Of a stretch of DNA of 14,974 nucleotides, positions 5,579-14,974 are shown piece by piece (the first letter of the stretch is position 1; each line of letters begins with the position of its first letter). The stretch lies in the IMG/VR virus record IMGVR_UViG_2711768058_000014, one strand, 5' to 3'. Position numbers and translations under genes: made by a program. A model generated the notes under the pieces. The model searched no databases, had not been told where the DNA came from, and saw nothing but the letters and a program-made list of their open reading frames with translations. The stretch is from a virus (taxonomy: Duplodnaviria; Heunggongvirae; Uroviricota; Caudoviricetes).

Positions 5579-5593
5579 TTTTTTGTAATTGCT

Positions 5594-5817
5594 GTCTACC
5601 CTGTCTACCTGAGTAAAGAAAAATACATTTAATTCAGTGCATTAAGTTAGGTAGATAGCCTTTTTTTACTGTCTACCCACTATCTACCCTCTCTACCTGA
5701 TTTTACCTGAATCAGACAGGGAGGTAGACACGGGGTAGATAGTGGATAAAAGCACTCTACCCCGCTGAAAGCCGCGCCATTACTGGTATGAGGGCCACTA
5801 AGGTAGATAAGGTAGAC
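5594..5817. repeat. Replication origin iterons: about 11 copies of heptamer (G/A/C)TCTACC in both orientations, with an AT-rich spacer
   Basis: GTCTACC at 5594, 5603, 5671; ATCTACC 5682; CTCTACC 5691, 5755; inverted GGTAGA(C/T) at 5650, 5723, 5734, 5802, 5811; AT-rich stretch 5620-5670. Confidence 0.7.
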
Positions 5818-5866
5818 AAGGGGAGGCACAACTCAAAACTTTTTAAACGAGGGGGTAAAAATAAAT

Positions 5867-6840: not shown

Positions 6841-6865
6841 AGCCGGAGAAATCCGGCTTTTTTTG
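6841..6865 (+). terminator. Rho-independent terminator (AGCCGGA-gaaa-TCCGGCT then T7)
   Basis: Perfect 7-bp GC-rich stem, 4-nt loop and U-tract directly after the PerC-like gene. Confidence 0.7.
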
Positions 6866-7194: not shown

Positions 7195-7218
7195 AGCCGG
7201 AGAAATCCGGCTTTTTGT
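7195..7218 (+). terminator. Second copy of the same terminator hairpin
   Basis: acagccggagaaatccggcttttt is identical at 6839-6862 and 7193-7216. Confidence 0.65.
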
Positions 7219-11692: not shown

Positions 11693-11814
11693 TGAGGCTG
11701 TATGACGGGGTGGGGGGCGTTTTCAGGACAAACCCGACCCCGCCGGGCACCGAACGCCTCCTCAAATTTTTATGCACGGGAATTTTTTGAAAAATAATCT
11801 GACGAAAAATAAGC

Positions 11815-13829: not shown

Positions 13830-14111
13830 ATGACAGAAGCCGAAATAACGGGATTAATCCGCCGCGTTGCCGGAATCAGCCAGCAGGTTGACGAACAGGC
13901 CACGCAGCCGGACAGCGTGACAGCCGAAAACTATGCGCGTGTTGTTGCTGAGGTGATGCGCCGTGATGGTATAGAACTTAATGGCGTGGATATGCGCAAC
14001 ATACGAACCAGAGTTCTTGAGTTGCTGGCCTACCGTCGCCGCGTGGAGATGTATCGGGAGAAGGAGAAAATAACGTACCACTGGAAGAAGCCGGAGCGGT
14101 TGCGGCGGTAA
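13830..14111 (+). CDS. Hypothetical protein (93 aa), last island gene after TerL
   Basis: GAGG ribosome-binding site 8 nt upstream of ATG; helical and charged; no recognisable motif. Confidence 0.5.
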   Translation: MTEAEITGLIRRVAGISQQVDEQATQPDSVTAENYARVVAEVMRRDGIELNGVDMRNIRTRVLELLAYRRRVEMYREKEKITYHWKKPERLRR

Positions 14112-14227
14112 CTGGTTGATATTCCCGACGGCCCAAAAATGGGTTGGCTACACCCCTCACAACTACGACATTTTCGCAGTTTAATTAATGGTCAGCTTAA
14201 TCGCTAACCCGCTGATATTTTCGGAAA

Positions 14228-14630
14228 CCTCAATTTGAGGAAGTCGGCGCGGTAACTCGCTGAACTTTAAGCAAAGCGCAAAATTGCGCTTGCGGAATAA
14301 TCATTATGATTACGCAGATGATTAAGGAATGACCGAAGGCGGAAATTCGCCTGTGGTTAATGGGGGAGTTGCAGATCTGCAACTCGACCATGAAACTACG
14401 GAAACTACCCGTAGTTTGGGTAGTAAGAGTAACACCCAGATTTTGGGGCTTACTCGTGATACCCAAATTTGGGGTATCAGTGGCAACCATAACGACTTTC
14501 GTTACGGTTGATGCTTTTACCCCATTGGGGGAAAGGTATTACGATAATCATAACACCTACCGAACAGGTAAAGCCCACCAGCCTGATTAACGTTTAACCG
14601 GAAAAAAATTCCGGTAGGTGGGGATCCCCA
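14228..14630. repeat. Cluster of at least seven different short perfect or near-perfect palindromes (hairpin-capable)
   Basis: CCTCAAtTTGAGG 14228-14240; AAGCGCAAAATTGCGCTT 14274-14291; AGTTGCAGATCTGCAACT 14367-14384; AAACTACccGTAGTTT 14402-14417; GATACCCaaatttgGGGTATC 14458-14478; ACCGGAAaaaaaTTCCGGT 14597-14615; TGGGGATCCCCA 14619-14630. Confidence 0.6.
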
Positions 14631-14741
14631 TATCGACATTAACGCCCCTCATGAATTGGTGTGCTTCCCCCTGGAAAGATGATCCGCCTGTATATTTCTT
14701 GTGTCTATTTGTTCCACGTTGTTTCATACAGTGCACCGAAC

Positions 14742-14765
14742 GGTGTAGTCACTGGTGTAGTCATT
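14742..14765. repeat. Tandem 12-bp direct repeat GGTGTAGTCA(C/T)T x2 next to palindrome CACCGaaCGGTG
   Basis: 14742-14753 and 14754-14765; palindrome 14734-14745; candidate recombinase arm-type sites near the right junction. Confidence 0.45.
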
Positions 14766-14809
14766 TTGCGATTTTTGGCACTTTTTGCGGTGTTAATTAT
14801 TTAATTAAA

Positions 14810-14974
14810 TCAATGTGTTATGCGAAATAAGTTATATATAACAGCAATAAATAATGCGAGAATAAACGGCACGATGATCTCGGCGGCAAAACGGATACCG
14901 CAGAGAATAATGACCAGCATTCCCAACATAATGACGATTTTTAGGCCATTGAGCGTGATGATCGGCTTTGCCAT
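14810..14974 (-). pseudogene. tqsA: Truncated 5' fragment (54 codons) of a tqsA/ydgG-like inner-membrane transporter gene
   Basis: Minus-strand translation [54 protein letters not shown]; N-terminus recalled as TqsA-like; the premature stop falls where island DNA begins. Confidence 0.5.

What the first reader, a model, noticed from the sequence alone, without database searches (positions are those of the whole stretch)
14112..14700. ORF-poor region of about 600 bp packed with distinct perfect palindromes
At least seven different inverted repeats, each able to form a 5-7 bp stem with a 3-7 nt loop, lie within about 400 bp; three have GATC-containing centres (AGATCT, GGATCC). No convincing ORF is present (only low-complexity frames without a ribosome-binding site). 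Candidates are a structured non-coding RNA, a packaging (cos/pac) recognition region after TerL, or clustered operator and recombination sites. None of the annotated genes explains it.
Basis: seen in the sequence. Interest (0 to 1): 0.6.

Follow-up and report, generated by a model that had tools for sequence, protein, structure and literature searches.

The report
Hairpin-rich non-coding tail of a satellite island
The 600-bp stretch is the conserved, gene-free right end of an E. coli phage satellite (a capsid-forming PICI): it holds a repeated unit made of a consensus site for the DNA-bending protein IHF followed by a stem-loop, plus further palindromes that lead into the integration site, and it is not the DNA-packaging site.

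Summary
The region has 12 perfect hairpins with stems of at least 6 bp, against about 1.3 expected; the rest of the window has 0-4 per equal-sized stretch. The window is an EcCIEDL933-type cf-PICI inserted in tqsA. The region lies between the last gene (a 93-aa ORF, phrog_1561) and attR.

It is modular and mosaic:
- **Tandem array.** It starts at the ORF's stop codon. Each unit is a conserved box followed by a stem-loop. The box's invariant bases match the IHF consensus in register. The stem sequences differ but stay paired (at least 8 stem classes). Islands carry 1-6 copies, all on the sense strand.
- **Relative with a 45%-identical ORF.** It keeps the same plan.
- **Further modules.** These include a 20-bp perfect palindrome and AACTAC repeats.
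- **Conserved block.** This runs into the attP arm, which holds a doubled integrase motif, an IHF site and the core. The arm lies just right of the reported coordinates.

The region is shared by PICIs with unrelated packaging systems. The known cos sites of classical PICIs map upstream of the ORF, so a cos/pac role is unlikely.

Best reading (confidence about 0.4): an island-specific, BIME/RIP-like trailer. It would be co-transcribed as protective 3' stem-loops and bind IHF on the DNA, followed by recombination-accessory sites. The function is untested.

The parts
13830..14111 (+). Last conserved gene of the island (93 aa, phrog_1561, function unknown). Its stop codon lies inside the first box of the array.
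   Evidence: Predicted as three helices with no fold match. The family is narrow: 36 representatives at 50% identity.
14107..14146 (+). Module 1: type-A box GGTAACTGGTTGATATTCCCGA followed by stem-loop CGGCCCA-AAAA-TGGGTTG (14129-14146). The box contains a perfect IHF consensus, TATCAACCAGTTA, on the minus strand at 14109-14121.
14160..14182 (.). Decayed copy of the AAACTACG...CGTAGTTT palindrome. It is a perfect 24-bp palindrome in L002.
14203..14247 (+). Module 2: type-B box GCTAACCCGCTGATATTTTCGG followed by a two-tier stem-loop. The box contains a perfect IHF consensus, TATCAGCGGGTTA, on the minus strand at 14205-14217. The outer stem is CGG/TCG and the inner stem is CCTCAA-T-TTGAGG (14228-14240).
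14251..14293 (+). Module 3: type-A box with a degenerate IHF match (TAACTCGCTGAAC), followed by stem-loop AGCAA-A-GCGCAA-AA-TTGCGC-TTGC.
14294..14327 (+). Type-C module: conserved flanks (GAAT / ACGCAG / AAGG) around a stem that covaries between islands. The stem is AATCAT/ATGATT here, GGTCAT/ATGACC in L002 and L093, and GGTG/CACC in L062 and L088.
14337..14352 (.). Stem-loop AGGCG-GAAATT-CGCCT
14361..14483 (.). Optional block F. It contains a 20-bp perfect palindrome (14366-14385), four AACTAC/GTAGTT half-sites that can form alternative hairpins (14393-14424), and stem-loops at 14424-14456 and 14457-14479. It is present at 94% identity in the helper-embedded PICI L003 and absent from the EcCIEDL933-type island L087.
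14484..14536 (+). Two stem-loops at the start of the widely conserved block (14484-14510 and 14514-14536). Substitutions keep pairing mostly through G-U on the + strand. At the same position L073 has an unrelated hairpin.
14597..14635 (.). Stem-loop ACCGGAA-A5-TTCCGGT (14597-14615), followed by the right half of a conserved 24-bp palindrome, CGATATGGGGATCCCCATATCG. The left half is deleted in this island, leaving TGGGGATCCCCA.
14709..14846 (+). attP P arm, just outside the reported coordinates. It contains TTGTTCCAcgTTGTTTCA (14709-14726), the doubled motif GGTGTAGTCActGGTGTAGTCA (14742-14763), the IHF consensus AATCAATGTGTTA (14808-14820) and the crossover core ATAACAGCA (14838-14846).
   Evidence: The same 23-mer recurs 133 bp beyond the attL core, just upstream of int. 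The geometry equals the doubled motif described for HE-PICIs (PMC10111431). IHF match.
11693..11814 (+). HNH-terS intergenic gap with a G-rich tract: the more likely position of the cf-PICI cos site. It is not part of the finding and is listed as the rival location.
   Evidence: The HK97-type arrangement hnh-cos-terS is taken from established knowledge.

Best explanation
The region is the cis-acting, non-coding trailer of an E. coli-type PICI. It is built from small autonomous modules that recombination shuffles between islands.

**Left half (about 14103-14296).** This is a tandem array, with a period of about 48 nt between adjacent copies, that begins at the stop codon of the last gene. Each unit is an IHF-consensus box followed by a short stem-loop.

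**Proposed mechanism.** I propose it works like an island-private version of the chromosomal BIME-1/RIP elements (IHF site plus palindromic units at the 3' ends of operons).
- The array is read through as the 3' end of the rightward late (packaging) operon.
- Its sense-strand stem-loops stall 3'-to-5' exonucleases and so protect and define the 3' end of the message.
- On the DNA, IHF bound at the boxes bends the duplex. This forms a structured buffer between the heavily transcribed operon and the attP arm.

**Right half (14361-14700).** It carries further stem-loops and sequence-conserved palindromes or repeats (the 20-bp palindrome, AACTAC repeats, a remnant of a 24-bp palindrome). These are candidate sites for island or host DNA-binding proteins that assist Int at the adjoining P arm.

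**Shown.**
- Position, modular anatomy, covariation and strand bias.
- Match to the IHF consensus.
- Linkage to the 93-aa ORF.
- The attP arm.
- Absence of the known cos sequences.

**Inferred.** Transcription through the region, RNA protection, actual IHF binding, and any role in recombination.
For: **Location.** The region lies between the last ORF and attR of a cf-PICI inserted in tqsA.

**Hairpin excess.** 12 observed against 1.3 expected.

**Array anatomy.**
- 135 box matches in 44 related loci are all on the ORF's strand, with 1-6 per island. The first is always 7 nt before the ORF's end.
- Spacing between adjacent copies is typically 48 nt.
- The invariant columns are TAA....TGA. This is YAANNNNTTGATW, the complement of the IHF consensus WATCAANNNNTTR, in exact register. 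The four N positions vary freely (consensus as given in PMC8942017 and PMC10380432).
- The window has 5 consensus matches against 1.0 expected. Three are in this right end.
- The relative whose ORF is 45% identical (L088) has 5 perfect boxes, each followed by a hairpin. The locus holds 6 matches against 0.57 expected.

**Covariation.**
- The inner stem is 96% paired.
- 4 of its 5 pairs show changes on both sides.
- The covariation score is 0.515, against 0.165 in shuffles (0 of 500 reach it) and at most 0.14 when partners are slid.
- There are at least 8 stem classes.

**Strand bias.**
- G-T pairs outnumber A-C mismatches 22 to 6 on the + strand.
- The mean energy advantage of the + strand is 0.5 kcal/mol.
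- Most one-sided changes in 14484-14536 give G-U on the + strand.

**Linkage.** The type-B box occurs in 42 IMG/VR contigs. In 41 of them the ORF lies 42-410 nt upstream on the same strand.

**Analogy.** BIMEs vary in tandem copy number between strains, the BIME-1 linker carries an IHF site, and REPs act as mRNA stabilisers, terminators and insulators (PMC3333891).

**attP arm next door.**
Against: - No transcript data exist, so it is not shown that the region is transcribed or that the message ends here.
- No intrinsic terminator was found. The stems are short (5-12 bp), much weaker than REP hairpins.
- The strand bias rests on related, non-independent copies.
- The alignment used for the covariation count was anchored on predicted hairpins, which favours pairing.
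- IHF binding is inferred from a consensus only.
- The third window box and several boxes in relatives deviate from that consensus.
- The A/T tract abuts the core, whereas I recall it as spaced away from the core in classic IHF sites. This comparison was not checked against any source.
- The top of the stems is nearly constant (CA-loop-TG). This could also indicate a sequence-specific partner.
- A Klebsiella cf-PICI (L086) lacks the 93-aa ORF and has only about 340 bp between its last ORF and int, so the element does not appear to be essential to the cf-PICI way of life. I did not inspect that gap for modules.
Confidence: 0.4

Rival explanations
1. Purely DNA-level recombination accessory region. 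Here the whole stretch is an unusually long extension of the attP P arm. IHF at the boxes, and a directionality factor such as AlpA (or the 93-aa protein) at the AACTAC repeats and palindromes, would wrap the DNA to control the direction of Int recombination. The palindromes would matter as duplex protein sites or cruciforms, not as RNA.
For: - The region adjoins a bona fide P arm with a doubled Int motif and an IHF site.
- The IHF consensus is kept in the boxes.
- L088 has four direct AACTACG repeats about 11 bp apart, next to the 24-bp palindrome, roughly 100-130 bp from the arm motif.
- The 24-bp and 20-bp palindromes are conserved in sequence across islands with different integrase arm motifs.
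- By established knowledge of lambda, Xis, Fis and IHF sites sit in the P arm at the end of the prophage opposite to int. The layout here is the same.
Against: - The array lies 550-740 bp from the core, far beyond known arms (about 150-250 bp).
- Module order and number vary, and the distance to the core varies from under 200 to about 600 bp. This is hard to reconcile with a phased nucleoprotein complex.
- At least 8 different stem sequences within single islands argue against one palindrome-binding protein.
- A G-T over A-C asymmetry is not expected for duplex sites.
Confidence: 0.2
2. A functional RNA in its own right. The array would be a multi-hairpin RNA, processed from the 3' UTR, that binds and titrates a protein: the 93-aa product, or a host or helper factor. 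Alternatively it would be cut into small RNAs. The conserved box would then be an RNA recognition or cleavage motif rather than an IHF site.
For: - Covarying stems carry conserved single-stranded flanks in two module families.
- All 135 copies have the sense orientation.
- G-U pairs are biased to the + strand.
- The array is tightly linked to the 93-aa ORF.
- Alternative pairings are possible in 14294-14327 and 14393-14424.
Against: - No Rfam match even at E < 0.8.
- No promoter or terminator delimits an RNA.
- The box matches a DNA-binding consensus position by position, which would have to be coincidence.
- Copies within an array are diverged, unlike known repeat RNAs. By my recollection, type III antitoxin and CsrB-like RNAs keep the bound motif constant.
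Confidence: 0.15
3. Selfish or neutral repeat debris. The modules would be miniature repeat elements or recombination scars. They would accumulate in the only dispensable DNA of a size-constrained cos-packaged satellite, serving at most as stuffer that tunes genome length.
For: - Mosaic distribution, variable copy number, decayed copies and truncated palindromes (14160-14182; the half 24-bp palindrome).
- Modules occur in another order in L093.
- One island has a box fused straight to host DNA.
Against: - The plan is kept in the relative with a 45%-identical ORF, with fresh stem sequences and perfect boxes.
- Invariant positions sit amid freely varying ones.
- Compensatory changes are present.
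- The modules are not found elsewhere in E. coli chromosomes or in phages.
- No transposase-like gene is present.
Confidence: 0.15
4. Packaging signal (cos or pac, or an accessory cosB-like terminase-loading site) of the cf-PICI, lying after terL.
For: - It is non-coding DNA next to the terminase genes, with repeats and IHF-type sites. This is reminiscent of lambda cosB, which has R sites plus an IHF site (cos anatomy in PMC6739421).
- cf-PICI DNA has cohesive ends (bioRxiv 10.1101/2025.02.11.637232).
Against: - The region is shared with PICIs that lack this terminase and use lambda-type cos sites mapped elsewhere.
- There is no cosN-like sequence.
- Copy number varies between cf-PICIs with the same packaging gene set.
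- The Klebsiella cf-PICI L086 has no 93-aa ORF after terL and only a short gap before int.
- Its particle-derived record begins and ends in the HNH-terS gap.
- In HK97-type systems cos lies between hnh and terS (established knowledge).
Confidence: 0.04

Closest known systems
BIME-1 / RIP (RIB) elements of E. coli: REP palindromic units flanking a linker that carries an IHF site, at the 3' ends of transcription units
   Same: - IHF-consensus sites combined with short extragenic palindromes.
- Position directly after the last gene of an operon.
- Tandem arrangement whose copy number differs between strains.
- Stems that differ in sequence but keep complementarity (PMC3333891).
   Different: - No sequence similarity to REPs, and no conserved GTAG next to a 30-40-nt imperfect palindrome.
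- Stems are only 5-12 bp with A/T-rich loops.
- All units are co-oriented rather than alternating.
- The modules are confined to PICI right ends (1557 of 5426 E. coli genomes, 1-6 places each), not hundreds per chromosome.
- No associated RAYT gene.
attP P arm of lambda-type tyrosine integrases, and the doubled arm motif described for helper-embedded PICIs
   Same: - The doubled motif lies about 80 bp upstream and 133 bp downstream of the core.
- An IHF consensus sits beside the core.
- The arm is at the end of the element opposite to int.
   Different: - These features occupy 14709-14846, to the right of the finding.
- The motif sequence (GGTGTAGTCA) differs from the published HE-PICI motif (TGTATTGC).
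- The finding itself extends 130-730 bp further out than any described arm.
Lambda-type cos sites of classical E. coli PICIs (EcCICFT073 cos1, cos2) and lambda cosB
   Same: Non-coding DNA in the packaging-proximal part of a PICI. Lambda cosB also combines repeated protein sites with an IHF site.
   Different: - cosQ/cosN sequences are absent here.
- cos1 and cos2 map upstream of the 93-aa ORF.
- This island carries its own HNH/P27-TerS/TerL system.
Lambda nut sites (boxA plus the boxB hairpin)
   Same: A conserved linear box followed at fixed distance by a 5-bp stem with an A-rich loop, on the sense strand.
   Different: - The position is at the end, not the start, of the operon.
- Loops lack the GNRA-like G, and stems and loops vary freely.
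- The box does not match boxA.
- This comparison was made by inspection and from memory only.

Membership tests
lambda-like cos site (as in EcCICFT073 cos1/cos2) | cosN resembling GGGCGGCGACCT, with cosQ upstream and cosB downstream | tested here: not met
   No match with up to 3 mismatches inside 14112-14700. The cos1/cos2 deletion primers hit classical PICIs upstream of the 93-aa ORF and nothing in this region.
HK97-type (HNH-dependent) cos site | Located between the hnh gene and terS | tested here: not met
   The finding lies downstream of terL and the 93-aa ORF. The hnh-terS gap is 11693-11814. The particle-derived cf-PICI record L086 starts and ends in that gap. The cohesive ends themselves were not mapped.
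Packaging site of any kind | Co-varies with, and is specific to, the cognate terminase | tested here: not met
   The same modules occur in islands with lambda-type (Rpp), Nu1-like and HK97-type packaging genes. Copy number differs between cf-PICIs with the same packaging gene set.
Known RNA family (Rfam 15) | Covariance-model score at or above the gathering threshold | tested here: not met
   0 matches at gathering threshold. The best sub-threshold E-values are 0.85-4.7, all to irrelevant families.
Intrinsic (Rho-independent) terminator | G+C-rich stem followed by a U tract | tested here: not met
   Two weak pattern matches against 1.6 expected. None of the array hairpins is followed by a T run.
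IHF binding site | Match to WATCAANNNNTTR (WATCAR accepted) | tested here: met
   14109-14121 and 14205-14217 are perfect matches, and 14808-14820 lies in the att arm. L088 has 5 of 5 boxes perfect. The invariant columns coincide with the specified positions.
IHF binding site | Actual binding and bending by IHF | not testable with these tools
   Needs EMSA, footprinting or ChIP.
REP/BIME | GTAG tetranucleotide next to a 30-40-nt imperfect palindrome; REP and inverted REP alternate; hundreds of chromosomal copies | tested here: not met
   All 135 units are co-oriented. Stems are short. Hits occur only in genomes with PICIs, 1-6 places each. Family definition from PMC3333891.
attP arm of the island's tyrosine integrase | Arm-type repeats present on both sides of the core at fixed distances | tested here: met
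   Met for 14742-14763 and its twin near int (geometry as in PMC10111431). This lies outside 14112-14700, and no copy of the motif lies inside the finding.
PICI replication origin / P4 crr-like cis replication region | Rep iterons: two inverted sets around an A+T-rich spacer, or the same iterons repeated at a distance | tested here: not met
   The origin is at 5586-5823 with TGTCTACC iterons. Block F is 94% identical in L003, whose iterons are TGTTCACC.
Protein-coding gene | Reading frame conserved in relatives | tested here: not met
   Mechanical ORFs of 54-86 aa exist, but they are disrupted by module-sized indels in relatives.
Dam-regulated GATC cluster | GATC enriched and conserved | tested here: not met
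   3 sites against about 1.65 expected. The palindrome centres are AAATTT, GAATCC or GATTCC in relatives.

The most novel reading that the evidence does not exclude
The 93-aa protein and the box-plus-hairpin array form a previously undescribed cognate pair. The small basic three-helix protein would recognise the repeated box-hairpin units encoded immediately after its own gene, either as sense RNA or as extruded or bent DNA together with IHF. Through them it would control a step common to all E. coli-type PICIs. Examples are read-through into attP/int in the circular form, the direction of recombination, or the fate of the late transcript. This would be a new cis/trans regulatory device of phage satellites. 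It might also explain the reported 'hypothetical gene' whose loss severely reduces EcCIEDL933 transfer, if that gene is this ORF. I could not establish that identity.
Probability: 0.15. Interest if true: 0.7.

Novelty: new variant of a known kind. Interest (0 to 1): 0.5.

Why it matters
PICIs and cf-PICIs are major vehicles of gene transfer in enterobacteria. Their genes have been dissected, but their non-coding right end has not been described in the PICI papers I could read.

**What this work shows.** That end is a conserved, modular set of cis elements. A box-plus-hairpin array with an IHF consensus is linked to a gene of unknown function.

**What it offers experimenters.**
- A concrete, deletable target with coordinates.
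- A testable host-factor dependency (IHF).
- A warning that the cos site of cf-PICIs should be sought in the hnh-terS gap, not after terL.

**If the trailer has a function.** If it stabilises the late message or helps Int, it would matter for engineering PICI-based delivery vehicles. In those, 0.5-0.7 kb of apparently empty DNA might otherwise be discarded.

Tried and rejected
- **Rfam.** Searches at gathering and permissive thresholds found nothing. There are no tRNA or tmRNA genes.
- **Promoter and terminator scan.** Nothing above chance.
- **Lambda cosN search.** Negative.
- **Phage collection.** BLAST of the region found no match.
- **Box or its complement elsewhere in the island.** This tested a P4 CI/seqA-type RNA-RNA pairing idea. 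There are only the three array copies.
- **crr-like second Rep-binding region.** Rejected, because the AACTAC repeats do not co-vary with the origin iterons.
- **Cargo or defence-gene hotspot.** Rejected. In about 50 related islands the space between the ORF and the att arm never holds a gene.
- **Integron attC, CRISPR or solitary repeat, type III antitoxin repeats, Tus/Ter site.** Considered by inspection and dropped. The box does not pair with a 3' partner, the repeats are too diverged, or the key bases differ.
- **Structure of the 93-aa protein.** The model has moderate confidence (pLDDT 70.5) and no PDB fold match at E < 2.
- **RNAalifold on a plain MAFFT alignment of modules.** It failed because the hairpins were misaligned. 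I had to anchor the alignment on predicted loops, which biases pair counts.
- **Genome-collection scan with the single protein.** It returned only one locus.
- **Identity of 'gene 1792'.** Could not be established from the cf-PICI paper.
- **Known sRNA search.** The O157 sRNA Esr41 is in another O-island (OI-43), and the review I read lists none for OI-51.
Full report
**1. Where the finding sits**

The window is an E. coli capsid-forming phage-inducible chromosomal island (cf-PICI). Its gene order is:
- integrase;
- AlpA-type regulator;
- primase-replicase with its iteron origin;
- SSB;
- HK97-type capsid, protease and portal;
- head-tail connectors;
- HNH endonuclease;
- a 60-aa ORF;
- P27-family TerS and TerL;
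- a final 93-aa ORF (13830-14111, phrog_1561, unknown function).

The last 144 bases are the 5' fragment of the host gene tqsA. The other fragment lies beyond the integrase, so the island is inserted in tqsA. 5424 of 5426 complete E. coli genomes match the host part, and 189 match at least 80% of the 875-base query. The finding (14112-14700) is therefore most of the non-coding right end of the island, between its last gene and attR.

**2.

- There are 12 perfect inverted repeats with stems of at least 6 bp and loops of at most 8 nt. Dinucleotide shuffles gave 1.26 +/- 1.12 (maximum 5 in 500).
- With stems of at least 7 bp there are 8, against 0.32.
- Other windows of equal size in the island hold 0-4.
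- Both strands fold far better than shuffles (z = -7.3 and -10.8), as expected for palindromic DNA.
- Two palindromes have GATC centres (14366-14385 and 14619-14630). The third GATC is not in a palindrome.
- GATC is not enriched (3 against about 1.65 expected). Relatives keep the palindromes with other centres. Dam methylation is therefore not the point.
- Mechanical ORFs exist but are broken by module-sized indels in relatives.

**3. The region is modular and mosaic**

Pieces of it occur in 1557 of 5426 E. coli genomes, at 1-6 places each. Every context inspected was the right end of a PICI. The inspected contexts include:
- classical Rpp-type PICIs next to phoQ, tqsA or narP (L002, L004, L094);
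- helper-embedded PICIs inside a prophage terminase or capsid gene (L003, L095);
- the EcCIEDL933-type cf-PICI, O-island 51 (L087).

BLAST mapping of about 50 right ends distinguishes three parts:
- a variable left part, 14100-14480;
- an optional block, 14361-14483;
- a block, 14482-14815, kept at 76-91% identity in most islands.

**4. The array**

Starting 7 nt before the end of the 93-aa ORF in every island, a unit recurs 1-6 times, always on the ORF's strand (135 of 135 copies). Adjacent copies are typically 48 nt apart. The unit has two parts.

*The box.* It is about 20 nt long and comes in two types:
- type A: GCGGTAACTnGyTGAwmTT;
- type B: GCyTAACCCGyTGATwyTTTCGG.

*The stem-loop.* It is often two-tiered.

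The window has three units:

| Unit | Coordinates |
|---|---|
| 1 | 14107-14146 |
| 2 | 14203-14247 |
| 3 | 14251-14293 |

The prototype-like island L087 has six.

The invariant columns of the box are TAA....TGA. This is YAANNNNTTGATW, the complement of the IHF consensus WATCAANNNNTTR, in exact register. The four unspecified positions vary freely (consensus cited from PMC8942017 and PMC10380432).
- Two of the three window boxes are perfect matches. A third perfect match lies beside the att core. The window has 5 matches against 1.0 expected.
- In L088, whose ORF is only 45% identical, five boxes are perfect matches and each is followed by a hairpin. The locus has 6 matches against 0.57 expected.

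The stems differ between units: CCCA/TGGG, CCTCAA/TTGAGG, GCGCAA/TTGCGC, TTCGCC/GGCGAA, CAGCC/GGCTG, AGCTCA/TGAGCT, CCCCC/GGGGG and others. They stay paired:
- the inner helix is 96% paired;
- 4 of its 5 pairs show changes on both sides;
- the covariation score is 0.515, against 0.165 in shuffles (0 of 500 reach it) and at most 0.14 with slid partners.

The alignment had to be anchored on predicted loops, which favours pairing. The number of pair types and the slid controls are the more robust part of this result.

The top of the stem is almost always CA-(A/T-rich loop)-TG.

Near-pairs are G-T far more often than A-C on the + strand (22 against 6). The + strand folds slightly better. Both point to the sense strand as the folding strand, but the copies are not independent.

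The type-B box occurs in only 42 of 2.9 million IMG/VR contigs. In 41 of them the ORF lies 42-410 nt upstream on the same strand. One PICI without the ORF (L093) has the modules after its capsid gene, in a different order.

**5. Other modules**

- **Type-C module (14294-14327).** It has conserved flanks around a stem that covaries between islands: AATCAT/ATGATT, GGTCAT/ATGACC and GGTG/CACC.
- **Block F.** It holds the 20-bp perfect palindrome. Relatives keep it palindromic through symmetrical changes (TTGCAAATTTGCAA, GTGCAAATTTGCAC). It also holds four AACTAC/GTAGTT half-sites that allow alternative hairpins.
- **AACTACG repeats in L088.** Four direct copies lie about 11 bp apart, next to a 24-bp palindrome, CGATATGGGGATCCCCATATCG. 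This palindrome is conserved in sequence in islands with different integrase arm motifs. This window retains only half of it, at 14619-14635.
- **Two stem-loops at 14484-14536.** They are conserved, and most of their one-sided changes give G-U on the + strand. At the same place L073 has an unrelated hairpin.

**6. What lies to the right: the attP arm**

- The 23-mer CGGTGTAGTCACTGGTGTAGTCA occurs at 14741-14763. It occurs again 133 bp beyond the attL core, just upstream of int.
- The shared core is ATAACAGCA (14838-14846).
- This geometry equals that of the doubled motif reported for helper-embedded PICIs, at -81 and +132 (PMC10111431). The motif sequence differs.
- With the IHF consensus at 14808-14820, this defines the P arm at about 14709-14846, just outside the reported coordinates.

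**7. Not a packaging site, not an origin**

*Packaging.*
- There is no cosN-like sequence in the region.
- The primers used to delete cos1 and cos2 of EcCICFT073 (supplement of PMC6092414) map upstream of the 93-aa ORF in classical PICIs. They match nothing in this region.
- The modules are shared by islands with unrelated packaging genes. Their number differs between cf-PICIs with the same packaging gene set.
- The cf-PICI papers do not map cos.
- In HK97-type systems cos lies between hnh and terS (established knowledge). That gap (11693-11814) has a G-rich tract.
- The record of a particle-derived Klebsiella cf-PICI begins 22 nt before terS. It ends at a sequence homologous to about 11708-11732. 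This is weak evidence, because records are often rotated to start at terS.

*Origin.*
- The origin is at 5586-5823, with TGTCTACC iterons, as described for PICIs (PMC6092414).
- The AACTAC repeats do not follow the iteron type.

**8. Interpretation**

Two facts need explaining together:
- a DNA-type consensus (IHF) in the box;
- strand-specific, covarying stems placed directly after the last gene.

The known system that unites both is the BIME-1/RIP class of chromosomal repeats. These are IHF sites combined with palindromic units at the 3' ends of operons. Their tandem copy number varies. Their known roles are mRNA stabiliser, terminator, insulator and protein-binding site (PMC3333891). The PICI modules fail the membership test for REP/BIME: no GTAG-REP, co-oriented units, short stems, and confinement to PICIs. 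They are an analogue, not a member.

I therefore favour an island-private trailer that does three things:
- it protects and defines the 3' end of the late transcript;
- it binds IHF on the DNA;
- it is followed by accessory protein sites that lead into the P arm.

My confidence is about 0.4, because transcription, RNA protection and IHF binding are all inferred.

| Rival | Confidence |
|---|---|
| Purely DNA-level extended recombination region | 0.2 |
| Functional RNA or protein-RNA module tied to the 93-aa protein | 0.15 |
| Selfish or neutral repeats | 0.15 |
| Packaging site | 0.04 |

**9. Novelty and interest**

None of the PICI papers I could read describes this region. The kind of element is known: IHF sites plus palindromic units, and att-proximal accessory sites. 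The family, its linkage to phrog_1561 and its restriction to PICI right ends appear to be new. I rate it a new variant of a known kind. Interest is moderate (0.5): it is a well-defined, testable cis element in an intensively studied class of satellites, but it has no demonstrated function.

Noticed in passing
window 14831-14974 (and L001 808-1713): The island interrupts tqsA, which encodes the autoinducer-2 exporter. The 5' fragment reads 46 native codons and then runs into island DNA. About 190-200 of 5426 complete E. coli genomes carry this junction, so these strains probably lack TqsA.
   Followed up: partly
window 11693-11814: The HNH-terS gap contains a G-rich tract (GGGGTGGGGGGCG). The record of a particle-derived Klebsiella cf-PICI (LR881103.1) ends at the homologous point and restarts 22 nt before terS. 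This gap is the likely cos site of cf-PICIs, which the cf-PICI papers I read do not map.
   Followed up: partly
window 5586-5823: The PICI replication origin has two inverted sets of (C/T)TGTCTACC iterons around an A+T-rich spacer. The helper-embedded PICI L003 has P4-type TGTTCACC iterons instead.
   Followed up: yes
window 14742-14763 and L001 1843-1864: A doubled motif, GGTGTAGTCActGGTGTAGTCA, lies on both att arms, about 80 bp upstream and 133 bp downstream of the core. [quoted passage not shown] Other integrase types show their own doubled motifs: GGTTATACG in L062 and L093, and ATGTGTATAG in L088.
   Followed up: partly
L063 about 2925-2960 (146 nt after the ORF): A type-B box is fused directly to the phoQ-side host flank, with the whole att arm missing. 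This looks like a deletion that has immobilised the island.
   Followed up: no
L003 6326-7447; L095 2775-4486: Two relatives are helper-embedded PICIs, inserted in a lambdoid prophage terminase (gpA) gene or capsid gene. In L095 an 'abortive infection family protein' gene lies on the opposite strand between the PICI end and the interrupted prophage gene.
   Followed up: no
L093 2457-2760: A PICI at yejO in an O111:H8 strain lacks the 93-aa ORF. It still has the same modules after its capsid gene, in a different order with the 24-bp palindrome first. The modules are therefore autonomous and can be shuffled.
   Followed up: partly
window 6846-6864 and 7200-7216: Two copies of a canonical terminator-like hairpin, GAGAAATCCGGCTTTTTTT. 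The same sequence flanks cos1 in EcCICFT073. It shows that the island does use ordinary intrinsic terminators elsewhere, but not at its right end.
   Followed up: no
window 13830-14111: The 93-aa ORF family is very narrow: 36 representatives at 50% identity among 1.8 billion proteins. It has an invariant basic C-terminus, WKKPERLRR. Its last codons and stop form part of the first box.
   Followed up: partly
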